Shown: piece by piece, positions 20,338 through 45,581 of the stretch
Layout of the letters: each line of letters starts with the position of its first letter
How positions within the stretch are numbered: position 1 is the stretch's first letter
Source: a virus
Reading direction: 5' to 3' (one strand)
Length of the DNA stretch: 64,000 nt
IMG/VR virus record: IMGVR_UViG_3300045988_182793
Coordinates: 1 to 64,000 of that record
Made by a program: the position numbers and the translations under genes
Notes under the pieces: model-generated
Databases searched by the model: none
Told to the model about the DNA's origin: nothing
What the model saw: the letters and a program-made list of their open reading frames with translations, nothing else

Positions 20338-20373
20338 ATTGTCAATCTGTGCGAATTACGTACAATGAAAAAT
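20338..20373 (+). promoter_or_regulatory. copy 7 of conserved promoter motif (TCTGTGCGAATTACGTACAAT)
   Basis: consensus match. Confidence 0.6.
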
Positions 20374-20399
20374 ATAAACCAAAAATATATCTTATCGTT

Positions 20400-20433
20400 G
20401 TCCCGCATGAGTTGTTTGTGCGGGACTTTTTTG
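20400..20433 (+). terminator. leader hairpin+T6 between promoter and gene (GTCCCGCA...TGCGGGAC)
   Basis: perfect 8-bp stem then TTTTTT, 22 nt before ATG 20455. Confidence 0.5.
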
Positions 20434-20454
20434 TTTGCGGAAAGGAAATGCACT

Positions 20455-20652
20455 ATGTACGGTTTATCAGAAGAAAGCTTAACGATTGTTGGTGTTATTT
20501 TGATTGTGGTTGGTGTCGCTATGATTGGTTGGGGATTTGAATGGAATCAGGACATTACCAATGATAAACGGGTCGGAACCGTTGTCAGAGACATTGGCGT
20601 TATGGTTTTGGCAACCGGCATTATATTTGTGATGCAGCGGGCAATGAACTAA
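20455..20652 (+). CDS. small membrane protein (65 aa, 2 TM)
   Basis: MYGLSEESLTIVGVILIVVGVAMIGWGF... Confidence 0.4.
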   Translation: MYGLSEESLTIVGVILIVVGVAMIGWGFEWNQDITNDKRVGTVVRDIGVMVLATGIIFVMQRAMN

Positions 20653-20707
20653 ATTGAGAAAAAGTAAGGCAGGCTCATTTCGGGCCTGCTTGTTTTTTGG
20701 GTGAAAT

Positions 20708-22903
20708 ATGATTACAACAAAGAAGATTGACCCACGGCCATATCAGCAGAAAGCTGCTGCGGCGATTCATAGAGAGTGGGATGCCGGGAATAAGAAAACG
20801 CTGGTTGTGATGCCGACCGGAACCGGCAAAACTATTGTGTTTGCAAGCATCGTGAACGACCAGGTGGCAAAGGGTGAACACGTTTTGATTCTTGCGCACC
20901 GGGAAGAGCTTTTACAGCAGGCAAGCGACAAGCTCAAGATGGTGACGGGGCTAGAGACCGCGTTAGAGAAAGCGCAAAGCTCGGCGCTCGATTCCGATAA
21001 GATGGTCGTGGTTGCCAGTGTTCAGACTCTCTCTAAGCAGAATCGGTTAATGAAGTATCCGCGTGATTATTTCGGGACTATCATCATTGATGAAGCGCAT
21101 CACACGGCAGCCAAAACTTACAAGGGAATTCTCGAGCATTTCATCGATGCCAAAGTGTTGGGCGTGACCGCAACACCCGACCGAAGCGACATGAAATCCC
21201 TATCTGATATCTTTGATAGTCTTGCATTTGAATATAAGCTCCCGGATGCAATTCGGGAAGGATATCTCTGCAAAATTAACACGAAGACAATTCCGGTCGA
21301 GGTAGACATCAGCAAGGTTCATATCAATGCCGGTGATTTCAGTGCTCAGGACCTCGGCAATGTTCTTGACCTGTATCTGGACACGATTGCGGATGCCATT
21401 GTGCGAGAATGCCAGAACCGAAAGACTGTCATCTTTACGCCTCTGGTACGAATCAGCAAAAGACTGTGTAATATCCTCAATAAGCGAAACTTCAAGACCG
21501 CAGAAGTCAATGGCGCGTCTGCGGACCGGAAGGACGTTCTGAAAGGGTTTGACAATGGCGAGTACAAGGCGCTGACGAACGCGATGCTCCTGACGGAAGG
21601 CTGGGATTGCCCGACCGTTGACTGTATCATCTGCTTGCGTCCTACCAAGAGCCGTAGCCTGTATGCGCAGATTGTGGGACGCGGAACACGCCTATGTGAA
21701 GGGAAAAAGAATCTTCTCGTGCTGGATTTCCTGTGGCTGACAAAGAAACATAGTCTTTGCCATCCTGCTGATATTTTCTGTGAAGACCCGGAAGTGGCAC
21801 AAAAGACCACCGATATGCTGGCGGATGCGGCACTCACCGGTTCGAATAGCCAGGAGAATTTCGGGAGTCCCGAATTGGGGCTGATTGAGGCAATCGAGGA
21901 AGCACAGACTGAGCTGGACGAGGAAAAGCGGAAAGCACTGTGTGAACTCGAAAAGCAGGATACGATTCAGCGCAAGCTCAAGGCACAGCGTCAAAAGCCG
22001 AGAGGATTGGTTGACCCGCTGCAGTACATTTTCAGCATCGAAGCGCCGGAACTCAACGATTATCAGCCGATGTTTGAGAGTGAGAGGCAGGAGCCTTCCG
22101 ATGACATCATCGATAGTATTTCGTGCTACGGCGTAAAAGGGGATGCCATCAAATCTCAGGGCCTTGCCGCTGCAATTCTCAAACGACTCATTGCTCGCAG
22201 AGCCAGCGGAATGGCTACCCCGAAACAGATTCGGTGTCTTGAAAGTTTTGGGTTCGTCCATGTTGGGCGCTGGACATTGCGCTATGCAAGCAGCTTTTTG
22301 GACATCATCAGTTCTCATGACTGGAAACTTCCGAATGGGTTCGACGCATCCACGCTGGACCCGGAAAAGAATACGGCAGAAGACCTCGCCAAGCTGTATC
22401 CAGACTACAAGGAAGATGAGACGAAGAAAGCACCGCGTGGGGATGCTTTCATCTGCTGCTACTACGATGCAAGCTACAATTTGGCTCGCAAGAAGGTCTG
22501 CAACAGTGAAAAAGAAATGTTGAATCTGTATTATTCACTGTTCAATACTTGCGAAGCAAAGTACTTCTATTATACGAAGGAAGCTGATGCCTGGATGGCA
22601 GAAAAGCAGAATCTAATTGCCAGAAAGACTGGAACACCGATTCCTGCCGCACAGCCGACTCAGGCAACACCCGCAGTACCTCCTCCCTTTGTCCCGACAG
22701 CTCCCGCTAAGAGCCACGAATATTATTGCTGCCTTGCCCGATGGGATGGGTCCTACATTGGCTATGAGATTTACAAGAGTGAGCAGGCAGCTCAGAATGC
22801 CCGAAAGCAGATTGCCCGGCGCGGTGAGACGGCAGTGTATGCCACAGTAGAGGAAGCCGAAGCGTGGGTCGAACAACAGAAGGCGGCAAGAACCAGGAGG
22901 TAA
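20708..22903 (+). CDS. DEAD/DEAH-box SF2 helicase (type III res-subunit-like) with ~330-aa unknown C-terminal region
   Basis: motif I MPTGTGKT, II DEAHH, III TATPDR, VI QIVGRGTR. Confidence 0.8.
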   Translation: MITTKKIDPRPYQQKAAAAIHREWDAGNKKTLVVMPTGTGKTIVFASIVNDQVAKGEHVLILAHREELLQQASDKLKMVTGLETALEKAQSSALDSDKMVVVASVQTLSKQNRLMKYPRDYFGTIIIDEAHHTAAKTYKGILEHFIDAKVLGVTATPDRSDMKSLSDIFDSLAFEYKLPDAIREGYLCKINTKTIPVEVDISKVHINAGDFSAQDLGNVLDLYLDTIADAIVRECQNRKTVIFTPLVRISKRLCNILNKRNFKTAEVNGASADRKDVLKGFDNGEYKALTNAMLLTEGWDCPTVDCIICLRPTKSRSLYAQIVGRGTRLCEGKKNLLVLDFLWLTKKHSLCHPADIFCEDPEVAQKTTDMLADAALTGSNSQENFGSPELGLIEAIEEAQTELDEEKRKALCELEKQDTIQRKLKAQRQKPRGLVDPLQYIFSIEAPELNDYQPMFESERQEPSDDIIDSISCYGVKGDAIKSQGLAAAILKRLIARRASGMATPKQIRCLESFGFVHVGRWTLRYASSFLDIISSHDWKLPNGFDASTLDPEKNTAEDLAKLYPDYKEDETKKAPRGDAFICCYYDASYNLARKKVCNSEKEMLNLYYSLFNTCEAKYFYYTKEADAWMAEKQNLIARKTGTPIPAAQPTQATPAVPPPFVPTAPAKSHEYYCCLARWDGSYIGYEIYKSEQAAQNARKQIARRGETAVYATVEEAEAWVEQQKAARTRR

Positions 22904-22907
22904 CAAG

Positions 22908-23462
22908 ATGCGTACAAACAAGACGGCAAGCCATATTTACTATGAGCTTGACCACGATGTGCAGGAATATGCGAAACGGCTTTTAGCCAAAAAAACTCTG
23001 CACGCGGTACGGCAGGACAATACTGCTTCATTGCCTGACGAAATGGCAAAAAAACTCTCCGAAACGGCAGTATTTCTGACCGAACGCCTCGCGCTTTTGT
23101 ATGAGCTGAATTCTGGATTCCGAGGCATCCGATTCAGCACTTTCGGAGAACAACCTGCTGTTTACACTACCATGGTCCAGCACAATGCTCCGCTGTACGA
23201 TGAGCTGATGCTTGGACGGGCCTATAACCTTGCCAACTACCTTGCTGCTGATAACGCGAATATCAAAGAATCTGCTTTGATGAAGCACAAGGTTTTGGCA
23301 GCAATTTATAGTGCCGCTGCACACATGAAAGGGCAGACTCCGGAGCGGAGAAAAATCTCGATTCAGAGCCAGATGTTTGTGTCTACGGCAATAGAGCTGT
23401 TTGATGGTCTTTTGAGTGCAGCGGCAGAGAAAAAGAACGGCGGCGATAAAAGTGCCGCCTGA
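22908..23462 (+). CDS. hypothetical protein (184 aa)
   Basis: ORF only. Confidence 0.45.
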   Translation: MRTNKTASHIYYELDHDVQEYAKRLLAKKTLHAVRQDNTASLPDEMAKKLSETAVFLTERLALLYELNSGFRGIRFSTFGEQPAVYTTMVQHNAPLYDELMLGRAYNLANYLAADNANIKESALMKHKVLAAIYSAAAHMKGQTPERRKISIQSQMFVSTAIELFDGLLSAAAEKKNGGDKSAA

Positions 23463-23484
23463 GTTAGAAATTAGGGGAGTTTGC

Positions 23485-23937
23485 ATGATTCGAGTTAAGA
23501 AAGAGAACCACCGTAGTTGGTTCATGAGCAACTATTATCCTTGCGAATTTGTGATGAATGGGATTCGTTACAAGAACGCCGAGGCAGCATTCCAGAGTCA
23601 CAAGGTCCCACTGGAAGAGCGCAGACAGTTTGCGGACATGCCACCGGCTTCTGCCAAGCGCTTTGGCCGCAATGTAGCTATCCCCGCAAACTGGGATGAG
23701 GCTCGGGACGACGTGATGCGCCGCGTGGTGATGGCCAAGTTCGAGCAGAATGAGGACCTCAAACAGCGCCTCCTCGAAACGGGTACACAGCTTATTGAGG
23801 AGGATACTACCAGCTGGCATGACAATTACTGGGGCAACTGCCACTGCCAGAAATGCCGGAACATCCCGGGTCAGAATCGGCTCGGAATCATTCTCATGGA
23901 AACGAGAGATAAGCTGAAAAAGCAAGCGGGCAAATAA
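23485..23937 (+). CDS. NADAR / YbiA-like (DUF1768) N-glycosidase-family protein
   Basis: VMRRVVMAKFEQNEDLKQRLLETG...WHDNYWG...GQNRLGIILMETR closely parallels E. coli YbiA. Confidence 0.8.
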   Translation: MIRVKKENHRSWFMSNYYPCEFVMNGIRYKNAEAAFQSHKVPLEERRQFADMPPASAKRFGRNVAIPANWDEARDDVMRRVVMAKFEQNEDLKQRLLETGTQLIEEDTTSWHDNYWGNCHCQKCRNIPGQNRLGIILMETRDKLKKQAGK

Positions 23938-24047
23938 TGCTTGCAATGCATTGCGGGTTCCATATAATTAAAACCGTAATCAAAAAGAACTATCTTTTGC
24001 GAGGACTCCGTTGCCGACGGTGTTCTCGTTTTCTTTTGTTCAAACGC

Positions 24048-24092
24048 AAAAGGCTGCCGCCCAGTAATGGGTAGCAGCCTTATTTTTTTTGT
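24048..24092. terminator. bidirectional terminator
   Basis: GGCTGC...GCAGCC stem, A-run upstream, T8 downstream. Confidence 0.65.
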
Positions 24093-24141
24093 TTGTATCA
24101 ACCGATAGGGCAGCAAATCATCTTACCGCGTTCAGAACGAT

Positions 24142-26028
24142 TCACTGCACAATCTCGCCAAGGTCGTTTGCATATTTCGGGTCACACATCATGAAGTAGT
24201 TGACGGGGCCGTACTCCAGACCGAGCTCCTGCGCGTATGCCTTGATAGCTTCCAGAACGTCCTCTTTCTTGAGGCCAAACTTGGAATGCAGACGGGCAAA
24301 CTCTTTGTCAGAGACAGAAACGCAAGAGCAATTTTCTGCATCGGTTTCTTTGCTGCCCAGCATCCCGTCAAAGATGTCCTGCCCTGCACAGAGAATCGTC
24401 TCATTGTTCATCGCATAGGCGATAACGGAAGCCTTACAGTCAAAGTCGCTGTCTTCCACAAGGAAATCCTCAGGGCGGCCGTGACGTTCAACAACGTTTT
24501 CATAGATGTCCCGGAGTTCGATAGGAGCAGAAGGAGCGGTCAGCGCTGCTTTATGAAGGCGCATAAATTCCACAAGCTTTTCATCCGAGAGGGTATCGGT
24601 ATAAAAGCCGATGCCGGAAACGCGAACCTTCACTTCGCTGGCAAAGTAATCGTCAATTTTGGAGACGATTTTCTGCTGGACCCGCTTGTATGCTTCCTGA
24701 ACATTGGAAGCCGTGTAAAATACCGGGAACTTCATGATGTCGATTCCCTCCGGCAGACTCGCGTCATAGGCCGCATCAATGCCGCCTCGCAGCGTCGGAA
24801 CCGCGTCATGCAGCTCTTTCACAGAAGAAATGTATCCGGTAATGTACAGCTCATCGTTTTTGCTGTAATGCCCGATAAGTCCCACATAGAGGGTCTGCAT
24901 CAGCATCCGCTTGAAGCTGAACCAACAAAGACGAATAGGTAGAATGACATTAGCAGCCGTACCTTCCGCACGATAGGTGCCGGGGGCAGAGACCTTTTCC
25001 AGCAGAATCTGGTCGTTCTTGTCACCGTATTTTTCCTTGAAAAGAGCTTGAAGAATTTCAGTGGACGAAAGAGGAGTGGACATTGGAATCGTTTCATTCA
25101 GAAAAGAGAGGAATGCATCCACGTTGTCTTTCTGCCATGCGTCATCAGACATGCTTGCACGCTGCATAGAGAGCTTGTCTTTCCCGTCGTCAGGCAAGGG
25201 CTCATACCCACAGGCGATACGAAGCTCGTTCTCCGTGACAGCATCCGTTGCGCTTGCAATTTTCTTGATGGTATTCTCGGTCGGCTGAGCTTTCGCGTTG
25301 CCGTTCGCAAGGTTACTGATATATCCACGAGTCAGCCCCGCTTGAAACGCAAACTTACCCTGTGTGCGGGTTCCGATGGCTTTTTTGACCAGCGATGCCA
25401 GCCTTTGAAAGTCGGGCTCTTTGGGAAAGGTGGCCTCCGTATCCTTATTGCTGTTCTTTTCAAGTACCGACTTGTCCCAACCGGTGACAAGAGAATACCC
25501 AATATCCTTCAAGGATTGATAGGCAACCCCATTCTGGTCAAGAGCCGGGGAGTAAATACCGCTGTTATCTTCCAGCTGCTCTACTGCCTCACGCACCATC
25601 CTTGCTTCGTTCATCAGGATGACGTCCGGGGCTTCAAGCCGGGCAAGACTCTTGTACCGATTATTGAGGCGCTCGACTCGTGCGGCCAATGCAGTGATGT
25701 TGGCAACTTGGTCTTCCGTTGCATGGGCAGAGATATCTGCACCAAGTTCAAAATGGTTCAGTGCAGGAATATCCACGCCTTTGCTCTTGGCGAATTCCAC
25801 AATGGCTTCCGCGCCATAGAAACGCTTCTCATGGGCTGCGACAACTTTCGTTATCGTGTCGGCCGAGTTGTCCAGCTCAAGCACTTCACCTTTTCCGGCA
25901 TCCTCGACATAACACCTGGCGTTGGTGAGAAAGCCTTTCAAAAAATCAGCATCCACATCCAGATTCTTAGCGATGCCGGGCAGCTGCTTATAGAAAATCA
26001 CGGGCGTGGCGAGGTTAACAGAAATCAT
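24142..26028 (-). CDS. large reverse-strand protein (628 aa) with internal XRE-like HTH (GKFAFQAGLTRGYISNLANG)
   Basis: only long minus-strand gene inside the + block; own AT-rich promoter region 26030-26240. Confidence 0.6.
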   Translation of the reverse strand: MISVNLATPVIFYKQLPGIAKNLDVDADFLKGFLTNARCYVEDAGKGEVLELDNSADTITKVVAAHEKRFYGAEAIVEFAKSKGVDIPALNHFELGADISAHATEDQVANITALAARVERLNNRYKSLARLEAPDVILMNEARMVREAVEQLEDNSGIYSPALDQNGVAYQSLKDIGYSLVTGWDKSVLEKNSNKDTEATFPKEPDFQRLASLVKKAIGTRTQGKFAFQAGLTRGYISNLANGNAKAQPTENTIKKIASATDAVTENELRIACGYEPLPDDGKDKLSMQRASMSDDAWQKDNVDAFLSFLNETIPMSTPLSSTEILQALFKEKYGDKNDQILLEKVSAPGTYRAEGTAANVILPIRLCWFSFKRMLMQTLYVGLIGHYSKNDELYITGYISSVKELHDAVPTLRGGIDAAYDASLPEGIDIMKFPVFYTASNVQEAYKRVQQKIVSKIDDYFASEVKVRVSGIGFYTDTLSDEKLVEFMRLHKAALTAPSAPIELRDIYENVVERHGRPEDFLVEDSDFDCKASVIAYAMNNETILCAGQDIFDGMLGSKETDAENCSCVSVSDKEFARLHSKFGLKKEDVLEAIKAYAQELGLEYGPVNYFMMCDPKYANDLGEIVQ

Positions 26029-26029
26029 G

Positions 26030-26240
26030 GTGTACTCCTTTCAGATGTGTCATTTGCTGTATAATAATGTCATCTTCTGTAATTATAATAGCACATCTCT
26101 CGCCAAAAAGCAAGCATGAATTTACAATAAATGACAATAAAACACACAAGATGACATATTTGAGCAAAGCAATTGATTCTTGAGCTTTCCGGCTTGGTGA
26201 CGGAACAAGCTCTATGCGCCTTGTCTTTACCACAGTTTTG
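26030..26240. promoter_or_regulatory. divergent promoter region with 4 TGTCAT/ATGACA half-sites
   Basis: gtgtcatttg, aatgtcatct, aaatgacaat, agatgacata read directly. Confidence 0.45.
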
Positions 26241-26275
26241 CCTTGTACATCCGTGCGAATTAAATACAATTAAAG
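26240..26275 (+). promoter_or_regulatory. copy 8 of conserved promoter motif (TCCGTGCGAATTAAATACAAT)
   Basis: consensus match. Confidence 0.6.
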
Positions 26276-26319
26276 ATGTCGAAAGATAAAGCACAACACA
26301 CAAAAAAGGAAATTTCACT

Positions 26320-26640: not shown

Positions 26641-26763
26641 ACACCACAGAGCAAAAAGCAAACCAAGCCTGCAGTAAAATGCGGGTAGGACTTTTTTGTT
26701 TGCGTAGCTGCATCCTTTTGTCCGCAGAAACCGTAGGTGCCAGGATGCGTAGCTGCCGATGTG

Positions 26764-26800
26764 TCTTGACCCGGCGTGCGAATCTCATACAATCAAATCT
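26764..26800 (+). promoter_or_regulatory. copy 9 of conserved promoter motif (GGCGTGCGAATCTCATACAAT), no obvious gene before next copy
   Basis: preceded by direct repeat GCGTAGCTGC x2 (26701-26750). Confidence 0.5.
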
Positions 26801-26869
26801 GTACGAAAGATACTATGCACACAATAGAATTCACACTAAGCTGCTCAGTGGCCTTATGGCTATTGGGTA

Positions 26870-26905
26870 GCTTTTTCTTTTGTGCGAACTGCGTACAATA
26901 AAAAT
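26870..26905 (+). promoter_or_regulatory. copy 10 of conserved promoter motif (TTTGTGCGAACTGCGTACAAT)
   Basis: consensus match. Confidence 0.6.
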
Positions 26906-26922
26906 CAGACGGAGGAACAACT

Positions 26923-27330: not shown

Positions 27331-27331
27331 G

Positions 27332-27808: not shown

Positions 27809-27812
27809 TAGC

Positions 27813-28955: not shown

Positions 28956-29005
28956 CGCACTCCCACCCCTTACGGAGTGGGCTTTCCCGGCGCGGGGACT
29001 GTAAA

Positions 29006-29040
29006 ATAAAGCTTGCACATCTGTGCGAATCAGATATAAT
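29006..29040 (+). promoter_or_regulatory. copy 11 of conserved promoter motif (TTGCACATCTGTGCGAATCAGATATAAT)
   Basis: best consensus copy: TTGCAC-16-TATAAT. Confidence 0.65.
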
Positions 29041-29063
29041 AACCCTAATAAGATAAAAATTGT

Positions 29064-29110
29064 GCCCTGACGGCATCTGAATTGGATGCTGCCGGGGCAT
29101 TTTTGTTTGT
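29064..29110 (+). terminator. leader hairpin+T-run between promoter and UvrD-like gene
   Basis: 14-bp stem GCCCTGACGGCATC/GATGCTGCCGGGGC then ATTTTTGTTTG. Confidence 0.5.
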
Positions 29111-32820: not shown

Positions 32821-32884
32821 ATAATTGATTTTTACACCTCCGATGTTACGGCATCGGGGGTTTTGTTTTTGGGAGGATACGGAG

Positions 32885-33931
32885 ATGGCAAAGAACGATA
32901 ACCTGCATAAGGCAAAGGACGCAAAAAACGACGAGTTCTACACCAGAATCGAGGATGTCGCAGAGGAATTGCGGCACTACAAAAAGCATTTCGCAGGCAA
33001 GGTCGTATTCTGCAACTGTGATGACCCGACATGGTCTGCTTTCTGGCGGTATTTCCACCTGAACTTCGCCGAACTTGGTCTAAAGAAGCTGATTTCCACG
33101 CACTATGACCGCACCGAGCCCACCTACAAGATGGAGTATGAGGGTGGGGATGATAATGATGTGGAAGTCGGTGTAAAAACCCCGCTGGAAGGCAACGGCG
33201 ATTTCCGGAGCAAGGAATGCCTTGACTTGCTGGATGAGTGCGATATCGTGGTAACGAATCCGCCGTGGTCAATGTTCAGAGAATATGTCTCGCTCTTAGT
33301 GGAGCACAAAAAGCAGTTTGTTATCATTGGCAATAAGAACTCCATTACATACAAAGAATTTTTCCCGCTTTTGAAGGACAATCATGTTTGGATTGGCTAC
33401 ATGTCCCCGTCTGAATTCGATACGCCGTCTGGAATGACAAAGAAAGTCGCCGGTCTTGGGCGTTGGTTCACCAACCTCGACATCCAAAAGCGCCACGAAA
33501 AGCTGATTCTCTGGCAGCGGTACTATGACGATGACGGGAATCCTCTGCCGGATGCGGATGAGCGCTACCCCCACTACGATAATTACGACGCCATCAATGT
33601 GGACAGGGTTGCGGATATCCCGGTGGATTACAAGGGCGTTATGGGTGTGCCGATTACGTTCTTGGATAAGTATAATCCGAAAGAATTTGAAATTTTAGGC
33701 TATACAGGCGGTTTGGGATGGAATAGCCAAAACGATGTAAAAACCACAAAAGAATATTTGGAATGTAAGCAGCACAACCCAGACGGTAGTATTACAAGTG
33801 GGGGCAAAGTCAATACTGGCGCTGCATTGTGCTTTAGTGTAATTCCTGCACAAAGATACTATACGGCATCAAATTGCAGCGGGTATTTACTCAGAACATA
33901 CGGACGAATTCTTGTTTGCAAGACGCAATGA
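32885..33931 (+). CDS. EcoRI-family adenine-N6 DNA methyltransferase
   Basis: N-term MAKNDNLHKAKDAKNDEFYT parallels M.EcoRI N-terminus; motif IV VVTNPPWS. Confidence 0.8.
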   Translation: MAKNDNLHKAKDAKNDEFYTRIEDVAEELRHYKKHFAGKVVFCNCDDPTWSAFWRYFHLNFAELGLKKLISTHYDRTEPTYKMEYEGGDDNDVEVGVKTPLEGNGDFRSKECLDLLDECDIVVTNPPWSMFREYVSLLVEHKKQFVIIGNKNSITYKEFFPLLKDNHVWIGYMSPSEFDTPSGMTKKVAGLGRWFTNLDIQKRHEKLILWQRYYDDDGNPLPDADERYPHYDNYDAINVDRVADIPVDYKGVMGVPITFLDKYNPKEFEILGYTGGLGWNSQNDVKTTKEYLECKQHNPDGSITSGGKVNTGAALCFSVIPAQRYYTASNCSGYLLRTYGRILVCKTQ

Positions 33932-36266: not shown

Positions 36267-36335
36267 GGCGGCAAAATGCAGCGATTTTTGTTTGAAACCA
36301 ATGTATTGACTGAATAGTATCATTAAAATGGGGCT

Positions 36336-36440
36336 TGCGCAATTCTCAAAACATGCTATAATACAGACGTCACAACAAGTTCTAAACCTCCTATTGTAAT
36401 CAGTATCACACTGGCTGCGGTAGGAGGTTTTTTGTTTTGA
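36336..36440 (+). ncRNA. candidate small RNA: TTGCGC-17-TATAAT promoter then ~65-nt transcript ending in AACCTCCT..AGGAGGTT hairpin + T-run
   Basis: seen in sequence; no ORF. Confidence 0.35.
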
Positions 36441-37976: not shown

Positions 37977-37980
37977 TACC

Positions 37981-38945: not shown

Positions 38946-38959
38946 GGATTGGAGCAGCC

Positions 38960-39625
38960 ATGGCAAAAACTCTTCTGACTCAAAAAATAGAATCAGCGCT
39001 AAAGGTTTGGCATCCTGCCAACTATGGTGGATACCGGGTTGATTCGTTCCGTCAAGGCTTCGACGCTCTGGAAGTACCTGTCGAGTGCGGTTCGATAAAA
39101 TCCGGCCTTGTTGACTTCGTTCGGGTTCAAGAGTGCTTCACATCAGAAACAAAATGTGGGACCTGCAAACTCTCAATGTACAGGGATGAGGACAGAGACT
39201 TAGTTATGCCGTCCATCCGGCAGTGGATGCAGGAGGTATCATGCCCCAAAGATATCTCTGACTGGAATTTTCGAAACGAACCTTGTACGGAACGGTTCTG
39301 CAGGCTGTACAAAACGAAACATACATACATCATCGACACTGTCGTCACCTGCGTAGAAATTAAGGTTTCCGTGAGCGACTTTCACTCTGACCATGGCCAC
39401 AACTTTGTGGGGCACTGTAACTACTATGTGATGCCGTTAGCGCTATACAAGAAGGTCAAAGATGAGATTCCTGATGGTATAGGAGTTCTGCTATATTACA
39501 ACGGCGAAAATACATGCGGGATTCGCAAGAAAATCGAATGCAAGCCCCGCCAACTCTCGGAGAAAACCCAGAAATGGCTCATCATGTCAGTTGCTAAGCG
39601 ACTGACAAAAATGAGCAAAGCATAA
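38960..39625 (+). CDS. hypothetical protein with possible PD-(D/E)xK motif (IIDTVVTCVEIK)
   Basis: D...E.K spacing only. Confidence 0.4.
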   Translation: MAKTLLTQKIESALKVWHPANYGGYRVDSFRQGFDALEVPVECGSIKSGLVDFVRVQECFTSETKCGTCKLSMYRDEDRDLVMPSIRQWMQEVSCPKDISDWNFRNEPCTERFCRLYKTKHTYIIDTVVTCVEIKVSVSDFHSDHGHNFVGHCNYYVMPLALYKKVKDEIPDGIGVLLYYNGENTCGIRKKIECKPRQLSEKTQKWLIMSVAKRLTKMSKA

Positions 39626-39755
39626 ACAATTATTCTGCGAATATCACGATGCCATAAAAATATTCGCAGCGATAAAAATTTTCTAAAAAAGGAGAGAGAT
39701 ATAGTGAACTCTTAGACAAAAGCTAAATTATAAAGTGACAGCAAAGGAGAAGAAA

Positions 39756-40199
39756 ATGAAAAATGTTATGAAAAGTATGGCATTTATCATGGCAGCAATG
39801 CTTGCTACATCTTTTACTGCATTCGCAGACGATGCAGCAAAGAGCGCAACAACCACGGTAAATGCAAGCGTAAACGGAAACTACAGTATTACGGTTCCAG
39901 AACGTGTAACCTTGACCGGCTCTGGGGGAACGGGAGTTAAAACGGCATCGCTCGATGTTACCCTCAAGGGAGACATTCCCGAGGACAAGGTCGTTACCGT
40001 AACAACTGTTCCGCCCGTTATGACACGGTCCGGAGCAAAAGATGTGACGGCAACGGTTGAGACACCGAAAACTACATGGAGCCGAGATGACCTCTTGGCG
40101 AACTCGAAAGACGGCACAAAATCGGAATATACCGTTTCAGCTACACTCACACCAGGCGACTGGACCGGCACAGCAACATTTAGTTGTTCCATGTCGTAA
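39756..40199 (+). CDS. secreted protein, paralog of N-terminal domain of 40233-43013
   Basis: signal peptide; shared block VPE(R/N)V..TG..GTG.K.AS..V.LKGDIPE...TPGDW. Confidence 0.6.
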   Translation: MKNVMKSMAFIMAAMLATSFTAFADDAAKSATTTVNASVNGNYSITVPERVTLTGSGGTGVKTASLDVTLKGDIPEDKVVTVTTVPPVMTRSGAKDVTATVETPKTTWSRDDLLANSKDGTKSEYTVSATLTPGDWTGTATFSCSMS

Positions 40200-40232
40200 T
40201 GCTAGTCAAATACAATGAGAAGGAAAAAAACC

Positions 40233-43013
40233 ATGAAAATCAAAAGAATGGCGGCTGGATTTCTTGCGGTTGCCATGTTTGCCTCAATGGCGCTAACTCC
40301 AGCATGGGCAGAAGAGCTGACGGATTCTGTGGTAACGAATGATTTAACAGATACGGTCAGCGATGAACCGTCTGATACAGACGTTCTGGATGAAGACGAA
40401 AATCCTAACCCCCCGCAATTTTTTTCAGATACTGCAGCCGAAGGCAGTGCCTCTTTAGGTGCAGAAGATGACGGTACTTCTGTAGAAACAGCGGAAGACG
40501 AACCTAAAGAAGAAGGAAACACCGTATCCTTTACAACGCAAGGTGATAGCGGTTCCTCGCTTCAAGCCGATAGTAATGATAAAACGGCGGCCACTCAAAT
40601 CACGGCGTCGGTAGAGAGCACTTATACTCTTGTCGTTCCGGAAAACGTATCAATGACCGGTGCGGATGGTACTGGTGAAAAGAGCGCATCGATTCCGGTT
40701 CTTCTAAAAGGGGATATTCCGGAAGGTAAAGCAGTCTACGTCACGACAGACGCATCCCCGATGCAGCGAACCGGTTCCAAGGACGCGCCAATGTCTGTCA
40801 TGGCAAGCAAGACCCAGTGGAACCGCAGTGAACTGCTAGGTGATGGAACATCCTCTGATTACTCTGCAACAGCCACACTTACTCCGGGTGATTGGCTTGG
40901 AACGGTTGTGTTTAATTGCTTGCTCAACAAAGCTACCATCTACAATAAATTTACAGACAGCGACCCATTTAGCATTCTGGAAGATGGCGAAACATCTGAT
41001 GGCAAAACATTTGAAAGCAATAATGAGGCAGTGGCAAAAGTAGATGCAAATGGAACGGTGACAATTATTGGAGCTGGAGTTGCATCGATTACAGTGTCTT
41101 ACGTTGACGAAGAAGGAAACAAACAGCAATACATAGAAGTTGTTAATGTGGTAGAAAGACCGCTGTTTACAGCATCAATGCTAAAAACGGCATTAGATGA
41201 ACAAAAAGCTGCAAATAACTCAATTACTGCAATTCATTTCGGAGAATATGAAATCCCCAATAATGCCACAACTTACGATGTTTCAAGTGACAAGTCCGGA
41301 AGCATTATAGCATTTTGCGATGGAACTGAATTATGGGTAACGAATGCAGAAGGCGGAGCTTTACAATTTGCAAGTGGAGATAGCCTTTCTATAAGGGGAA
41401 ACGTAGATAAAGTAACAAAGTTATTTTATGACAATGTAAATACCAGCAGGGTAACAATTGTAAATAAGGTATTTCAATATTGGAAAAAACTAGAAGAAAT
41501 TTATGGACTTGAAAATTGGGATGTTTCAAACATCACTGATATGTCTAAAATGTTCTGGAGCTGTGAAAGGCTGACGACAATTTCGGGGATTGACGCATGG
41601 GATACAAGTAAAGTTACAACAATGTACTACATGTTTGATGATTGCGGTAGACTAAAATATTTACCGGACATCGGGAAATGGGACACTTCAAATGTAACTT
41701 CAATGGGATGCATGTTTAATGATAGCGGCTTAAAAGAATTGCCGGATATCAGTAATTGGGACACAAGCAATGTTACTGAAATGTATGGAATGTTTGCGGA
41801 ATGCTACTCGCTAAGCAAGTTGCCTGATATCGGGAAGTGGGATACGGGCAATGTAAAAATGTTCGGCTACAAAAATACAGAAAGCCTTGGAATGTTTAGT
41901 TGCTGCAGTTCTCTAACGGAACTCCCAGATATTAGCAATTGGAATACCAGCAATGCAGAAGATATGGGGCGAATGTTTCAGCAGTGTACAAAGCTTGAAA
42001 GACTACCAGATATTGGCAAATGGGATATAAGCAATGTAAAAAGCGTAGTACACATGTTCGAAGATGATAGAAAGATTACTGATTTTTCAACGTTAGCCAA
42101 TTGGGATACACGCAGCATCGAAGACATGAGCGGTATGTTTGAATATTGCGCAGGTATTTCAAATCTTCATTTTTTGAAAACATGGAACACCAGTAATACA
42201 CTATATACGGGCGGCATGTTTTACATGGGTAGAAGTCACTTGCAGTGGACACACTCCCAATTGACCTCATTGGAGGGACTTGAAGATTGGGAGGTAAGTA
42301 ACGTTATCTCTATGTACAATATGTTTGGGGACTGTGACAATTTAATTGATATTTCAGCACTTAAATCATGGGAAACGGATAACTTGCAAAATATTTCGAA
42401 TATTTTTTATGGTTGCTCAAAAATTGATGATATATCCGCACTTAAATCTTGGAACACTGGAAACGTTACCGATTTTTCATATGCTTTTACATATTGCAAA
42501 ATGAGCAGCCTTGACGCACTATCAAATTGGAAAACCGAAAAAGCTACTTCTTTTCGGGAAACATTCTCTGGCTGCACAAAACTAACAGATATTGCAGCCC
42601 TAAGAAATTGGAATACGATGAATGTTACTGACATTTGCGAAACGTTTGGTTACTGCTCGTTAATTCAAGATTTTTCACCAATTTCCAATTGGGATGTTTC
42701 AAAAGTGACGACAATGAAAAGTACATTCTCTGGCTGTAAAAAGTTAACGAATTTGAATGCATTAAAAAGCTGGAACCCGAAAGCTGTTACAACTATGGAT
42801 TCGATGTTTAGTAGCTGTACATTATTATCAGATATATCTTCGATAGCATCCTGGGATACTTCTAATGTAACATCAATGAACTATATGTTTTATGATTGCA
42901 CATCTCTCGAAGATGCTTCGCCTATTCAAAACTGGAATATCAGTAATGTGACTTCACGAACTGATATGTTTACAAATGCTCCGTGCGGTGACATCTTTGC
43001 ATCTGCAGCATAA
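40233..43013 (+). CDS. large secreted surface protein: acidic linker, Ig-like (BIG2) domain, ~20 DUF285/BspA-type LRR repeats
   Basis: repeats of WDTSNVT.M..MF..C..L; NNEAVAKVDANGTVTIIGAGVASITVSY. Confidence 0.75.
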   Translation: MKIKRMAAGFLAVAMFASMALTPAWAEELTDSVVTNDLTDTVSDEPSDTDVLDEDENPNPPQFFSDTAAEGSASLGAEDDGTSVETAEDEPKEEGNTVSFTTQGDSGSSLQADSNDKTAATQITASVESTYTLVVPENVSMTGADGTGEKSASIPVLLKGDIPEGKAVYVTTDASPMQRTGSKDAPMSVMASKTQWNRSELLGDGTSSDYSATATLTPGDWLGTVVFNCLLNKATIYNKFTDSDPFSILEDGETSDGKTFESNNEAVAKVDANGTVTIIGAGVASITVSYVDEEGNKQQYIEVVNVVERPLFTASMLKTALDEQKAANNSITAIHFGEYEIPNNATTYDVSSDKSGSIIAFCDGTELWVTNAEGGALQFASGDSLSIRGNVDKVTKLFYDNVNTSRVTIVNKVFQYWKKLEEIYGLENWDVSNITDMSKMFWSCERLTTISGIDAWDTSKVTTMYYMFDDCGRLKYLPDIGKWDTSNVTSMGCMFNDSGLKELPDISNWDTSNVTEMYGMFAECYSLSKLPDIGKWDTGNVKMFGYKNTESLGMFSCCSSLTELPDISNWNTSNAEDMGRMFQQCTKLERLPDIGKWDISNVKSVVHMFEDDRKITDFSTLANWDTRSIEDMSGMFEYCAGISNLHFLKTWNTSNTLYTGGMFYMGRSHLQWTHSQLTSLEGLEDWEVSNVISMYNMFGDCDNLIDISALKSWETDNLQNISNIFYGCSKIDDISALKSWNTGNVTDFSYAFTYCKMSSLDALSNWKTEKATSFRETFSGCTKLTDIAALRNWNTMNVTDICETFGYCSLIQDFSPISNWDVSKVTTMKSTFSGCKKLTNLNALKSWNPKAVTTMDSMFSSCTLLSDISSIASWDTSNVTSMNYMFYDCTSLEDASPIQNWNISNVTSRTDMFTNAPCGDIFASAA

Positions 43014-43360
43014 AGGAGGACTAAATGAAAAGGCTTTTGAAAATCATCATTTTCGCTATCCTGGCCGGACTTAGTATTTTTTGGTATACAGAAAGTCAGA
43101 AGCGCCGAACTCTGATTCCGCTCGAATTTCGAGGCGAGTGAGATGCGAAAAGACATCAAAATTGTGCTGGAAAGCATCTGGTATCTAATTCTGCCGGTGT
43201 TTATTTTTGTACTTAACGTTAGATATTGGCATGGGTATCTAGCGAATCCTGGCTGGTCCTTGACTCATCCATCCTACATTGTTTTCGGATTTATTTTGAG
43301 CGCTGCACTGTGCTTTGAAATCGTATATATCGACATTAAGTTTGGCGAAAAATAGCGCTT

Positions 43361-43396
43361 GCCAAAATATACGAACGCAGTACAATATAAAATGTG
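43361..43396 (+). promoter_or_regulatory. weak copy of promoter motif (ATACGAACGCAGTACAAT)
   Basis: partial consensus. Confidence 0.35.
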
Positions 43397-43437
43397 AACA
43401 GATACTAAAAATCAGTAGGATTCACAATCTGTATTTT

Positions 43438-43480
43438 AAGCGGACTTATCCCATAGCGGGGTAGGTCCGCTTTTTTTTGT
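43438..43480 (+). terminator. hairpin+T8 in leader of MBL gene / terminator of upstream unit
   Basis: GCGGACTTATCCC..GGGGTAGGTCCGC TTTTTTTT. Confidence 0.6.
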
Positions 43481-43496
43481 TGAAAGGAGAAAAAGT

Positions 43497-44657
43497 ATGA
43501 AACTCAAAAACAATCTATTCCGGAGCACGGCGGCAATCATCGCTACGCTCCTTGCACTCAGCTTCACCTGCTGCGGTCAGAATCCGATAATATCGGAAAG
43601 TCCATCCAGCACCGGGGTCGTCTCAGAAAGCACTGCAAGCAGTGAACAGACGGCTGGCGGTTCGGTGGACGGCAGCTTTACCATTCACTTTATAGACGTA
43701 GGGCAGGCGGATTCCGCCCTTATCACCTGCGACGGCCACTCAATGCTTATTGATGGCGGTAATGTCGATGATTCTAACCTCTTATATTCTGTTATGCAGC
43801 GTGAAACCGATGGGCACCTGGATTATGTCGTTGGGACTCACGCGCACGAAGACCACATCGGCGGCTTGTCCGGTGCTTTTGAGGCCGTCACTGCGAACAT
43901 GACTCTATGCCCTGTGACAGAATACGACAGCAAAGCATTTCGGGACTTTGCAAGCTACGCGGAGCAAAAAGGCGGAGGCATCACGATACCGGATGTGGGT
44001 GAAACCTACACTCTGGGGGAAGCGGAATTCACGATAGTTGGTGTTAATTCTGTTCCCGATGACACGAACAATACTTCGATTGTTTTGCGTATTGTCTATG
44101 GAGACACCTCGTTCCTCTTTACCGGAGATGCGGAACAGGAAGCGGAAAACGTGATACTTGCATCGGGACAAGACATTCAGTCAACAGTTCTGAAAGTAGG
44201 GCACCATGGCTCAAGTACATCTACCTCAGAGGCTTTTCTGGATGCGGTAAATCCAACATATGCTGTGATTTCTTGTGGCACAGGGAACAGTTACGGTCAT
44301 CCACATCAGGAAACACTCGACAAGTTGCAAAACAAAGGTGTAGAGGTTTATCGCACAGACCTGCTGGGTGATATTTACTGCACCTCGGATGGCAAAGAGG
44401 TAAGTTTCACTTCCGGTGAATATCATGATGAAAATCGGATTGAAGCCGGTAGTGCTGCAGATTCCAAGGATGAACAGGACAAAGCTTCACTTGTCATAGA
44501 CGAGACATACGTTCTGAACACGAGCACTATGAAGTTTCACAAACCCGATTGCTCTGCAGTCGAATCGATGAGTCAAAAGAATCGAATCGACTATATGGGC
44601 CCCCGCGATGAGCTCATCCAGGAAGGGTATTCGGCGTGTGGGATTTGCAAACCATAA
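43497..44657 (+). CDS. MBL-fold metallo-hydrolase lipoprotein (ComEC C-terminal-domain-like) with C-terminal Cys motif
   Basis: HFIDVGQADS, THAHEDHIGG, VGHHGSSTS; lipobox LSFTCC. Confidence 0.7.
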   Translation: MKLKNNLFRSTAAIIATLLALSFTCCGQNPIISESPSSTGVVSESTASSEQTAGGSVDGSFTIHFIDVGQADSALITCDGHSMLIDGGNVDDSNLLYSVMQRETDGHLDYVVGTHAHEDHIGGLSGAFEAVTANMTLCPVTEYDSKAFRDFASYAEQKGGGITIPDVGETYTLGEAEFTIVGVNSVPDDTNNTSIVLRIVYGDTSFLFTGDAEQEAENVILASGQDIQSTVLKVGHHGSSTSTSEAFLDAVNPTYAVISCGTGNSYGHPHQETLDKLQNKGVEVYRTDLLGDIYCTSDGKEVSFTSGEYHDENRIEAGSAADSKDEQDKASLVIDETYVLNTSTMKFHKPDCSAVESMSQKNRIDYMGPRDELIQEGYSACGICKP

Positions 44658-44675
44658 AAATTGCACCTGATTTAC

Positions 44676-44712
44676 TCGACAAGCTGTGCGAACCGACTAC
44701 AATAAAAATTGT
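44676..44712 (+). promoter_or_regulatory. copy 12 of conserved promoter motif (GCTGTGCGAACCGACTACAAT)
   Basis: consensus match. Confidence 0.55.
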
Positions 44713-44776
44713 ACGATAGATAACATTCCATATCGAAAGGGTTTTATGCCTTTCGTACATTCACAATTTCGCTTAA

Positions 44777-44815
44777 AGGGCGGACTTCCTGTTTTTAGGG
44801 AGCCCGCCCTTTTTG
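44777..44815 (+). terminator. leader hairpin+T-run (GGGCGGACTTCC..GGGAGCCCGCCC TTTTT) 25 nt before ATG 44841
   Basis: shares GCGGACTT with hairpin at 43440. Confidence 0.5.
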
Positions 44816-44840
44816 TATGAACAAGAAGGAGCGTAATGCA

Positions 44841-45581
44841 ATGTTCAAAATTCACGATGACAAAGTCTATTTCGTCGCCGAAACCCCCGATATCAACAAA
44901 GTTATCGAAATCTTCCTACCTAAGGATGACCGTGGCACCATTATGGATTCACACGAAATCCGTGTGGACCTGTGCCGTGCCGTCATTCACATGGAGAAGA
45001 AGGGTGTCCGTGTCTTGAAGGTCCGCAACATTGAGGATACCAACAAGGCAAGCATCGACATCTGGCACATGCCGGAATATCAGGAGGCTGCAGAGTCTCC
45101 CGTAAGCGATGTGGTCAATGCCTGCATTGAGTCCTGCTTTGATTCCGGTGCAATGTTCAATCTGCCATGCAAAGCCAACCGCAAAACCCATGAAGTTTTT
45201 GCTGTCGAATGCTGCGCAAGCCCCGATGATGATGACTCGTTCAGTTATGCAGAAGTGAAAATCAACGGCAAGGATTATCCTATCAATTTTATTGACGATA
45301 TTCTTCTCGAAAACAATGTTGATGATGCGCTGGATGAGTTTTATAGAATTCAGCAGACAGGCGAGTATTGGCAGCCTGATGGCAACAAAACGCTGGATGA
45401 TGCCATTCACGAATGTCGTTGGGCTATCCTGAAGGATGCCATCCAGAAGCGCGGACATGAGGCTGTTGCTGATTTTGTCGGGACCGACATTTCCAGCGAT
45501 ACTTACGACCGCGTGATGGATGAAACCGAAGCCCAGATGCCGGACGAAGAGTTCGAGCGCTTCTGGGAAAAGTACATCTAA
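44841..45581 (+). CDS. hypothetical acidic protein (246 aa)
   Basis: RBS AAGGAG. Confidence 0.5.
   Translation: MFKIHDDKVYFVAETPDINKVIEIFLPKDDRGTIMDSHEIRVDLCRAVIHMEKKGVRVLKVRNIEDTNKASIDIWHMPEYQEAAESPVSDVVNACIESCFDSGAMFNLPCKANRKTHEVFAVECCASPDDDDSFSYAEVKINGKDYPINFIDDILLENNVDDALDEFYRIQQTGEYWQPDGNKTLDDAIHECRWAILKDAIQKRGHEAVADFVGTDISSDTYDRVMDETEAQMPDEEFERFWEKYI

What the first reader, a model, noticed from the sequence alone, without database searches (positions are those of the whole stretch)
20338..44841. Four motif promoters are followed by a leader hairpin plus U-run immediately before the RBS (possible antitermination control)
At 20400-20433, 29064-29110, 43438-43480 and 44777-44815, a strong intrinsic-terminator-like stem then T-run lies between the conserved promoter motif and the start codon. 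The genes concerned are the helicase unit, the UvrD-like gene, the MBL gene and 44841. Two of the hairpins share GCGGACTT. Promoter-proximal terminators that must be overridden are the hallmark of Q- or N-type antitermination, or of attenuation.
Basis: partly seen in the sequence, partly recalled or inferred. Interest (0 to 1): 0.6.

Follow-up and report, generated by a model that had tools for sequence, protein, structure and literature searches.

The report
Phage promoters gated by leader terminators
In a large uncultivated gut phage, many strong promoters run straight into a transcription terminator just before the gene they serve, and some of these leaders belong to a previously undescribed, highly repeated structured RNA, so these genes probably depend on switchable terminator read-through.

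Summary
All four hairpin-plus-T-run sites are canonical intrinsic terminators. Each lies between a sigma-70-type motif promoter and an RBS, with no room for another promoter. Three more cases exist in the window (6873, 26838, 51936). Across the phage clade, 17 of 41 distinct motif promoters have a strong 5'-UTR terminator, and 7 of those also have a separate terminator upstream. So the hairpins are not simply the 3' ends of upstream genes.

Two of the four (43438, 44776, the pair sharing GCGGACTT) belong to a repeated ~100-nt leader family. It has an invariant start (UGUACGAUAGAUAMC), a three-way junction with a covarying hairpin, the linker AAUUCACAAUU, and always a terminator and then an RBS. 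I found 205 copies in 769 kb of relatives and no Rfam match. The other two leaders are short and unrelated.

The best reading is factor-dependent read-through (antitermination or attenuation) in modular promoter-leader-terminator cassettes. This is inferred, not shown: no Q-, N- or RinA-like protein was found. The main rival is fixed, leaky attenuation in shuffling cassettes like the T4 PeSLs. I rate it a new variant of a known kind, with moderate to high interest.

The parts
20339..20366 (+). Motif promoter TTGTCA-16-TACAAT with the spacer element TGTGCGAA
   Evidence: conserved in 25 related loci
20290..20326 (+). Strong terminator upstream of promoter 20339; first T of a terminator-promoter-terminator unit
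   Evidence: dG -20.6
20400..20436 (+). Leader terminator (stem 20400-20426 plus T-run), 34 nt after the -10 and 18 nt before ATG 20455
   Evidence: compensatory T-A to C-G change in the L008 group
20668..20697 (+). Second terminator, between the 65-aa ORF (20455-20652) and the helicase ATG 20708, with no promoter in between
   Evidence: helicase Pfam ResIII/Helicase_C
29013..29040 (+). Motif promoter TTGCAC-16-TATAAT
29062..29110 (+). Leader terminator before the UvrD-like gene (ATG 29127)
   Evidence: z -5.0; kept with compensatory changes in a diverged copy upstream of a UvrD-like homologue
43359..43386 (+). Motif promoter variant TTGCCA-16-TACAAT (spacer TATACGAA)
43397..43480 (+). Degenerate member of the leader RNA family (AGAUAC, AUUCACAAU, terminator 43438-43472 with GCGGACUU, T-run), before the MBL gene ATG 43497
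   Evidence: 37.4 bits, E 4e-5
44676..44703 (+). Motif promoter TCGACA-16-TACAAT
44708..44816 (+). Full member of the leader RNA family: three-way junction 44710-44758, linker AUUCACAAUUUCGC, terminator 44776-44811 and T-run; RBS and ATG 44841 follow
   Evidence: 83.1 bits, E 5e-14; structure
6747..6941 (+). Motif promoter (6747-6774), structured RNA of about 135 nt ending in terminator 6873-6909, then a second motif promoter (6914-6941) for gene 7035; a stand-alone small-RNA-like unit
   Evidence: dG -49.2, z -4.95
26766..26899 (+). Motif promoter (26766-26793), short leader with family-like start UGUACGAAAGAUAC, terminator 26838-26873, overlapping second motif promoter (26872-26899)
   Evidence: below threshold for the family model (15.4 bits)
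51771..51979 (+). Terminator-promoter-terminator unit: terminator 51771-51802, motif promoter 51848-51875, leader with hairpin 51913-51931 and terminator-like hairpin 51936-51971, before three multi-HTH genes
   Evidence: Pfam hits
32836..32869 (+). Terminator directly before the RBS and ATG (32885) of the EcoRI-like methylase, with no promoter in between
53984..54010 (+). Terminator directly before the AAA ATPase gene (ATG 54027), with no promoter in between
23941..24089 (+). Non-motif sigma-70 promoter (TTGCAA-16-TATAAT) followed by two terminators (23999-24029, 24050-24081) and no + strand gene
36335..36438 (+). Non-motif promoter (TTGCGC-16-TGcTATAAT) followed after about 22 nt by hairpin 36385-36429 and a T-run

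Best explanation
The window is an accessory, early-type region of a large uncultivated phage. It is transcribed in one direction from repeated sigma-70-type promoters.

About 40% of these promoters are built as a cassette: promoter, leader, efficient intrinsic terminator, RBS, gene. RNA polymerase starting at the promoter, or arriving from upstream, meets the terminator 50-110 nt after the start. By default it releases a short leader RNA. The gene is made only when the terminator is read through.

I infer that read-through is switched on by a phage-made (or infection-induced) factor. The terminators would then act as gates that define a delayed class of genes.

For the repeated leader family (44708-44816; degenerate copy at 43397-43480), the likely recognition element is the RNA itself. 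This means the invariant 5' strand and junction loops of a three-way junction, and perhaps a short linker:5'-arm helix that competes with the terminator.

For the short unstructured leaders (20400, 29062) the signal would have to be in the promoter or initial transcribed DNA (Q-like loading), or the factor would act on RNA polymerase globally.

Shown: the anatomy, its conservation, the RNA structure, and the need to cross a terminator. Inferred: that read-through is regulated, and by what.
For: - The terminators are canonical and strong: GC-rich stems with dG -16 to -25 and 5-8 U. They are at least as strong as the unit-end terminators.
- There is no space for another promoter before the ATG.
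- Terminator-promoter-terminator units at 20290/20339/20400 and 51771/51848/51936, and 7 such units clade-wide, show the leader terminator acts on the local promoter's own transcript.
- 17 of 41 distinct motif promoters in the clade carry a leader terminator.
- Hairpins and T-runs are maintained with compensatory changes.
- In the leader family, 166 of 167 distinct promoter-linked copies scored a terminator about 60-70 nt from the start, and one is visible by eye in the last copy. 120 of 134 are followed by an RBS and start codon, at a median 31 nt from the start of the T-run.
- The family has a sensor-like domain. 97.5% of cells are paired, against 38-53% in slid controls. All 3 P2b pairs and 8 of 11 terminator pairs show compensatory changes. 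P1 is sequence-invariant.
- A linker:5'-arm pairing is hinted. A CG linker with an A-containing arm occurs in 2 of 51 cases, while a UG linker pairs with both A and G arms.
- Other genes (helicase, methylase, AAA ATPase) sit directly behind promoter-less terminators. Read-through is therefore a general requirement in this genome.
Against: - No antiterminator homologue (Q, N, RinA/ArpU, NusG/LoaP, ANTAR, CAT/PRD) was found in about 65 window ORFs or 207 small proteins of relatives. The genome is incomplete, and one of those lists was truncated to 25 of 65 families.
- No expression data exist.
- Leaders of the different cassettes share no common RNA motif, so one RNA-recognising factor cannot explain them all.
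- No stable alternative structure competes with the terminator in the 20400 and 29062 leaders. Support for the family's antiterminator helix is marginal: 70.7% paired against 59% when slid by one column.
- Motif promoters without terminators carry the same spacer element, so that element is not specific to gated units.
- Non-motif promoters also run into terminators (23941, 36335).
Confidence: 0.4

Rival explanations
1. Fixed, leaky attenuation in modular regulatory cassettes, like the PeSLs of T4-type phages. One terminator does double duty: it ends the upstream gene's mRNA and constantly trims output from the strong local promoter. The high sequence conservation comes from cassette duplication and recombination, which shuffles accessory genes. 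No dedicated antiterminator exists.
For: - The region is hypervariable and made of accessory genes.
- The same promoter-leader-terminator module precedes different genes in relatives, with similarity ending right after the T-run.
- Cassettes recur every 1-2 kb on one strand in some relatives.
- 10 of the 17 leader-terminator units have no other terminator upstream, so that terminator can also serve the upstream gene.
- PeSLs are composite sigma-70-like promoter plus stem-loop terminators that flank ORFans (PMC2839356, PMC4122927).
- No antiterminator gene was found.
Against: - 7 terminator-promoter-terminator units already have an upstream terminator.
- The terminators look strong, not weakened.
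- In PeSLs the stem-loop lies before the transcription start, so it spares the local promoter. Here it lies inside the promoter's own transcript.
- The family shows invariant single-stranded and P1 nucleotides next to a freely covarying P2b. That points to selection on a specific RNA or DNA signal, not just shared descent.
- The three deletion junctions I examined in relatives are not at cassettes.
Confidence: 0.28
2. Q-type control specifically. A phage protein binds the conserved spacer element (TGCGAA, between -35 and -10) and loads onto RNA polymerase held at a sigma-dependent pause. The pause is set by a -10-like sequence in the initial transcribed region (TACGAT in the family). The loaded polymerase becomes resistant to the leader terminator and to downstream intercistronic terminators.
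For: - The layout matches the Q cassette: promoter, DNA element at the promoter, early -10-like element, terminator, genes (PMC9388147).
- The lambda pR' pause element is AACGAT at +1 to +6 (PMC4005639). The family's invariant start contains TACGAT at about +2 to +8.
- The P1 5' strand never covaries, which fits an extra DNA-level constraint.
- This would explain the short leaders that have no RNA sensor.
- It would also explain the need to cross promoter-less terminators.
Against: - No Q-family hit was found.
- The spacer element is also present at promoters that have no terminator.
- -10-like hexamers are expected by chance in AT-rich starts.
- Lambdoid phages have one such cassette, not dozens.
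- The transcription start is unmapped, so the register of TACGAT is unknown.
Confidence: 0.12
3. The short terminated transcripts are the product. They would be abundant small RNAs, made from many strong promoters, that act in trans as a decoy or sponge for a host protein, or by base-pairing. Downstream genes would get only incidental read-through.
For: - At 6756 and 26775 the promoter-RNA-terminator unit is followed by a second promoter. At 23941 no gene follows. So stand-alone units exist.
- The 5' end is closed by a stem, and a terminator forms the 3' end, as in stable small RNAs.
- The 6781-6916 RNA has an exposed ACCUCUUUU, which is anti-Shine-Dalgarno-like.
- Copy number is high.
Against: - 90% of family copies are followed within about 31 nt by an RBS and ORF that has no other promoter, so read-through must matter.
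- The variable P2b and variable terminator sequences argue against a single trans-acting seed.
Confidence: 0.1

Closest known systems
Lambdoid late-gene cassette (PR' promoter, QBE, sigma-dependent pause element, tR' terminator, Q protein)
   Same: A strong sigma-70 promoter is followed by an intrinsic terminator before the genes. A conserved DNA element sits between -35 and -10. An ACGAT-containing -10-like hexamer lies at the start of the transcript, and a short terminated leader RNA is expected.
   Different: No Q-family protein was found. There are dozens of cassettes per genome rather than one. The spacer element also occurs at promoters without terminators. Part of the cassettes carry a structured RNA domain that Q systems do not need.
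Lambda N/nut and HK022 put processive antitermination
   Same: A promoter-proximal RNA element is followed by terminators that must be crossed to reach early genes. This is the logic of a delayed-early gene class.
   Different: There is no boxA/boxB-like sequence and no arginine-rich N-like protein. There is no sequence or shape similarity to the two-hairpin put RNAs. Here a terminator is fused directly to each RNA element and each gene.
PeSL (promoter-early stem-loop) cassettes of T4-type phages (PMC2839356, PMC4122927)
   Same: Repeated composite sigma-70-like promoter plus terminator stem-loop plus Shine-Dalgarno modules lie in hyperplastic regions full of accessory ORFs. The same cassette is found in front of different genes.
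   Different: In PeSLs the stem-loop lies within or upstream of the promoter, before the transcription start. Here it is 22-99 nt inside the promoter's own transcript with a full U-run. One class also contains a ~50-nt three-way-junction RNA.
Terminator-type riboswitches and protein-dependent attenuators (RAT/BglG-LicT, ANTAR, PyrR, LoaP leaders)
   Same: For the 44708 family: a conserved structured 5' domain is followed by an intrinsic terminator and an RBS, with a possible short helix that shares the terminator's 5' arm.
   Different: No Rfam family matches. The competing helix is weakly supported. No matching RNA-binding regulator was found. The copy number per genome is far higher than for any known riboswitch or attenuator. 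The element sits at the exact 5' end of transcripts from one promoter type.

Membership tests
Intrinsic (Rho-independent) terminator | GC-rich hairpin immediately followed by a U-run on the transcribed strand | tested here: met
   The stems have dG -16 to -25 kcal/mol and are followed by 5-8 T. Compensatory changes are seen in relatives.
Q-type antitermination cassette | Gene for a Q protein (Q21, Q-lambda or Q82 families) in the element | tested here: not met
   No such Pfam or PHROG hit in about 65 window ORFs or 207 small proteins of relatives. The genome is incomplete and one list was truncated, so absence is not proven.
Q-type antitermination cassette | Q-binding DNA element at the promoter | tested here: inconclusive
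   A conserved TGTGCGAA/TGCGAA element lies in the spacer of all motif promoters. It is also present at promoters without terminators, and binding is unknown.
Q-type antitermination cassette | Sigma-dependent pause element (-10-like) in the initial transcribed region | tested here: inconclusive
   TACGAT lies in the invariant start of the leader family, compared with lambda AACGAT (PMC4005639). The other leaders are AT-rich with many chance -10-like hexamers. The transcription start is not mapped.
Q-type antitermination cassette | Terminator between the promoter and the regulated genes | tested here: met
N/nut antitermination | boxA/boxB-type RNA site and an arginine-rich N protein | tested here: not met
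   No shared leader motif across cassettes. No arginine-rich small protein apart from an internal stretch in the IscB-like ORF. No PHROG hit.
Terminator-type riboswitch or protein-dependent attenuator | Conserved structured sensor domain upstream of the terminator | tested here: met
   Met only for the 44708 family, with a degenerate copy at 43397. The three-way junction has covariation. It is not present in the 20400 and 29062 leaders.
Terminator-type riboswitch or protein-dependent attenuator | Mutually exclusive antiterminator helix | tested here: inconclusive
   The linker AAUUyyGC could pair with GCrGACUU of the 5' arm. 70.7% of cells are paired against 59% when slid by one column. One pair shows CG 23, UA 13, UG 9, and the association table is. 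No such helix exists for 20400 or 29062.
Terminator-type riboswitch or protein-dependent attenuator | Match to a described RNA family | tested here: not met
   Rfam 15 scan at E<=1 over 1-57000 found nothing in any leader.
PeSL cassettes (T4-type phages) | Repeated sigma-70-like promoter plus stem-loop plus Shine-Dalgarno module flanking accessory ORFs | tested here: met
.
PeSL cassettes (T4-type phages) | Stem-loop placed within or upstream of the promoter, before the transcription start | tested here: not met
   Here the hairpin starts 22-99 nt after the -10. The PeSL positions are described in PMC2839356.
PeSL cassettes (T4-type phages) | Cassettes are the sites of gene shuffling | tested here: inconclusive
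   The same cassette precedes different genes, with similarity ending after the T-run. However, three deletion junctions in relatives (24799/43101, 24211/54861, 23509/27567) are not at cassettes.

The most novel reading that the evidence does not exclude
The ~100-nt leader is a new class of gating RNA. It consists of an invariant UGUACGAUAGAUAMC start, a three-way junction, the linker AAUUCACAAUU and a terminator with GCrGACUU. A still unknown phage antiterminator protein, or a small-molecule or host signal, would bind the junction and open dozens of terminators at once. Many independent strong promoters would then form one switchable regulon in huge gut phages.
Probability: 0.3. Interest if true: 0.8.

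Novelty: new variant of a known kind. Interest (0 to 1): 0.6.

Why it matters
Control of gene timing in huge uncultivated gut phages is almost unknown. If these promoter-proximal terminators are switchable gates, they give a simple sequence rule for sorting a phage's genes into immediate and delayed classes.

They would also provide a compact, highly repeated RNA element (more than 200 natural variants, with covariation) for finding a new antitermination factor or ligand. The promoter-leader-terminator module is portable, which may be useful for synthetic biology in Firmicutes.

If instead the terminators are fixed attenuators, the cassettes extend the PeSL idea of mobile regulatory modules to a distant phage group, with a different geometry.

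Tried and rejected
- Rfam scans (gathering threshold, then E<=1) found no family in any leader.
- Leader peptide: a 25-codon ORF spans the 44776 hairpin, but it is not conserved in paralogous leaders, so I rejected it (alignment).
- Classical alternative-structure attenuation for 20400 and 29062: no competing helix was found.
- Hairpins as terminators for the opposite strand: the tails on the - strand are not T-rich.
- A leader motif common to all cassettes: none was found by k-mer counting. Only a subset shares the UGUAC... start.
- RNAalifold on MAFFT alignments recovers only the terminator. The three-way junction needed per-sequence folding and a hand-specified structure.
- Searches for antiterminators by Pfam, PHROGs and PDB sequence found nothing.
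- Megablast of the region against isolated phages found no match. The best isolate relative of the helicase is Faecalibacterium phage FP_Lugh at 52% identity.
- A scan of bacterial genomes for the leader start returned only single, apparently chance hits.
- Cassette-mediated deletions: the junctions I examined in relatives are not at cassettes.


Full report
**What the window is.** Nearly all genes lie on the + strand. They are accessory or early-type genes:
- an SPFH/flotillin-like protein, a VWA protein and a PLD nuclease;
- an IscB-like RRXRR/HNH protein, an SF2 helicase and a UvrD-like helicase;
- an EcoRI-like methylase, GmrSD/HNH, a DUF285/LRR protein and a metallo-beta-lactamase-fold protein;
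- a radical SAM protein, three multi-HTH proteins and an AAA ATPase.

An array of 18 tRNA genes follows from 57.2 kb. The helicase gene retrieves 27 near-identical loci from IMG/VR contigs of up to 222 kb, and other scans reach contigs of 389 kb. There is no nucleotide match among isolated phages. The closest isolate protein match is Faecalibacterium phage FP_Lugh at 52% identity. I conclude this is a large uncultivated phage, probably of a gut Firmicute. The host assignment is an inference.

**The observation.** The four sites are exactly as described. Each is a GC-rich hairpin followed by a T-run:
- 20400-20426, then TTTTTTGTTT;
- 29062-29100, then TTTTTGTTTG;
- 43438-43472, then TTTTTTTTG;
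- 44776-44811, then TTTTTG.

Hairpin energies range from -16 to -25 kcal/mol. Whole-leader folds beat shuffles for three of the four (z -5.0, -5.6, -3.9). The AT-rich 20400 leader reaches only z -1.3.

Each hairpin starts 22-73 nt after the -10 of a promoter with the motif TTGnnn-N3-TGTGCGAA-N5-TAyAAT. That motif occurs 12 times against 0.33 expected, always on the + strand. A 13th copy is at 6923.

Only about 18-30 nt lie between the T-run and the start codon, and the RBS fills them. No further promoter can fit there. Transcription of these genes must therefore cross the hairpin, which follows directly from the sequence.

**Extensions inside the window.** Three more motif promoters have the same design:
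- 6756 leads to a structured ~135-nt RNA ending at 6873-6909, followed by a second motif promoter.
- 26775 leads to 26838-26873, also followed by a second promoter.
- 51857 leads to 51936-51971, before the multi-HTH genes.

At 20339 and 51848 a separate strong terminator already lies 19-45 nt upstream of the -35 (20290-20319 and 51771-51802). These are terminator-promoter-terminator units.

Strong terminators also sit directly in front of the RBS of genes that have no promoter of their own:
- 20668, before the helicase at 20708;
- 32836, before the methylase at 32885;
- 53984, before the AAA ATPase at 54027;
- 49246, before the gene at 49296.

Two ordinary sigma-70-like promoters without the motif (23941, 36335) likewise run into hairpin-plus-T-run sites. 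Crossing terminators is thus a general requirement for expression in this genome, not a peculiarity of four genes.

**The clade.** Scanning IMG/VR for the promoter motif returned more than 117 loci, all from this phage group. Among 41 distinct promoter loci:
- 17 have a strong terminator (dG <= -13) in the 5' UTR, and 7 of these also have one upstream;
- 9 have only an upstream terminator;
- 15 have none.

Orthologous leaders keep the hairpin and T-run and show compensatory changes. Examples are T-A to C-G in the 20400 stem of the L008 group, and a reworked stem in a diverged copy of the 29062 leader upstream of a UvrD-like homologue. In some relatives the same promoter-leader-terminator precedes a different gene, with similarity ending right after the T-run. 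The unit is therefore a module.

**A repeated leader RNA family.** Many different promoters share the transcript start UGUACGAUAGAUAMC. Scanning IMG/VR for that string returned more than 120 loci, with up to five copies in 11-13 kb on one strand.
- 167 distinct copies lie at a fixed distance behind a relaxed form of the promoter (TTGnnn, TGCGAa, TAnAAT).
- 166 of these scored a terminator about 60-70 nt downstream, and one is visible by eye in the last copy.
- 120 of 134 are followed by an RBS and start codon, at a median 31 nt from the start of the T-run.

Per-sequence folding shows a three-way junction:
- P1 pairs UGUACGA with UCGUACA.
- P2a is a small hairpin, UAGAU-ACC-AUCUA.
- P2b is a variable hairpin stacked on P1.

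The junction is followed by the conserved linker AAUUCACAAUUyyGC and a terminator whose 5' arm reads GCrGACUU.

On a 64-sequence alignment, 94.5% of cells pair, against 37-48% when partners are slid. A covariance model finds 205 copies (E <= 1e-3) in 769 kb of 100 loci, always co-oriented within a locus. On 113 distinct hits:
- 97.5% of cells pair;
- all 3 P2b pairs and 8 of 11 terminator pairs show compensatory changes;
- the 7 P1 pairs never change on both sides.

That alignment is fitted to the model, so it leans towards the structure. The MAFFT-based count agrees with it.

In the window the model scores:
- 44708-44815 at 83 bits (E 5e-14);
- 43397-43478 at 37 bits (E 4e-5), a degenerate copy lacking P1 and P2b;
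- 26798-26876 below threshold.

Rfam has no match.

**How it may work.** The terminators look efficient, and they act on the local promoter's own transcripts, as the terminator-promoter-terminator units show. A strong promoter aimed at a strong terminator is most simply explained by conditional read-through.

- *The family.* The invariant junction nucleotides next to a freely covarying P2b suggest a specific recognition surface. The linker could pair with the terminator's 5' arm (AAUUyyGC with GCrGACUU). A CG linker is almost never combined with an A-containing arm (2 of 51), while UG linkers pair with both. The column-based test is only marginal, however: 70.7% paired against 59% when slid by one.
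- *The invariant P1 5' strand.* It also contains TACGAT. The sigma-dependent pause element of lambda pR' is AACGAT at +1 to +6 (PMC4005639), and the conserved spacer element sits where a Q-binding element would sit (PMC9388147). A Q-like route is therefore possible.
- *The short leaders at 20400 and 29062.* They have no competing structure and no room for an RNA sensor. A promoter-loaded or global factor would be needed there.

None of this is demonstrated. No known antiterminator family was found, and the genome is incomplete.

**Rivals.**
- *Fixed partial termination in shuffling cassettes.* This is the nearest described parallel, the PeSLs of T4-type phages (PMC2839356, PMC4122927). PeSL stem-loops lie before the transcription start, so they spare the local promoter. 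Here they do not. The three deletion junctions I checked in relatives are not at cassettes.
- *A trans-acting small-RNA role.* This fits the stand-alone units at 6756, 26775 and 23941. It does not fit the 90% of family copies that are fused to an RBS and ORF.

**Verdict.**
- The antitermination reading is plausible and partly supported, but unproven.
- The four sites are heterogeneous.
- The main new result is a high-copy structured leader-terminator RNA family at the 5' end of many transcription units in a clade of huge phages.

Noticed in passing
window 57112-57192 and 57197-57272: An HDV-like ribozyme (Rfam HDV-F-prausnitzii, 46.6 bits, above the gathering score) lies immediately 5' of tRNA-Thr at the head of an array of 18 tRNA genes (57.2-63.4 kb). 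This matches the 'theta ribozyme next to phage tRNA' arrangement described in PMC10879173. A weaker HDV-like match is at 11407-11478 (32.6 bits, below threshold).
   Followed up: partly
window 14623-16387: A HEARO/omega-type RNA match (14623-14935, 59.8 bits, below the gathering score of 83) lies directly upstream of a 465-aa RRXRR plus HNH ORF (14990-16387). This looks like an IscB-like RNA-guided nuclease locus inside the phage, behind motif promoter 14301-14328.
   Followed up: partly
window 6781-6916: A stand-alone promoter-to-terminator unit encodes a ~135-nt RNA. It has a long imperfect 5' hairpin (dG -49 kcal/mol, z -4.95) and an exposed ACCUCUUUU stretch resembling an anti-Shine-Dalgarno seed. 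It looks like a small regulatory RNA gene.
   Followed up: partly
window 51988-53981: Three consecutive genes encode proteins made of tandem helix-turn-helix units, with up to about six in the 317-aa protein. Hits include Mor, sigma-70 region 4, and resolvase- and transposase-type HTH domains. An AAA ATPase gene follows. They are candidates for reading the promoter spacer element, but this is untested.
   Followed up: partly
window 20290-20319 and 20400-20426: The terminator before promoter 20339 and the leader terminator after it share 11 nt in inverted orientation (CTCATGCGGGA and TCCCGCATGAG). The 3' arm of the first could therefore pair with the 5' arm of the second in a read-through transcript. 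Alternatively, one may be an inverted copy of the other. Nine of the 11 nt are kept in the diverged L008 group.
   Followed up: no
window 36385-36429: The hairpin after the non-motif promoter pairs CCUCC with GGAGG, so it buries a perfect Shine-Dalgarno-like sequence in its 3' arm just before the T-run. A second RBS-like GGAAGGAG follows at 36433-36440 but has only a very short ORF behind it.
   Followed up: no
window 58621-58696: ARAGORN reports a tRNA-like gene with an irregular anticodon loop ('tRNA-???', anticodon 'ca'). Rfam's tRNA model did not list it. It could be a suppressor-type or degenerate tRNA.
   Followed up: no
window 47842-49273: A 371-aa ORF matches a PHROG transposase family and may be TnpB-like. 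About 290 nt of non-coding sequence follow, ending in terminator 49246-49273 just before gene 49296. That sequence could be a guide-RNA region.
   Followed up: no
L002, L012, L027 versus window 23.5-55 kb: Close relatives (92-98% identity) lack large blocks of the window. Their junctions correspond to 24799/43101 (with a 9-nt overlap), 24211/54861, 20662/22569 and 23509/27567. The 24-55 kb stretch is therefore hypervariable accessory DNA.
   Followed up: partly
loci of relatives (alignment A3): Related contigs encode a 5-hmdU DNA kinase domain, which suggests hypermodified thymidine. They also encode a Cas7 protein, sortases, an AbiEii toxin and several DNA methylases.
   Followed up: no
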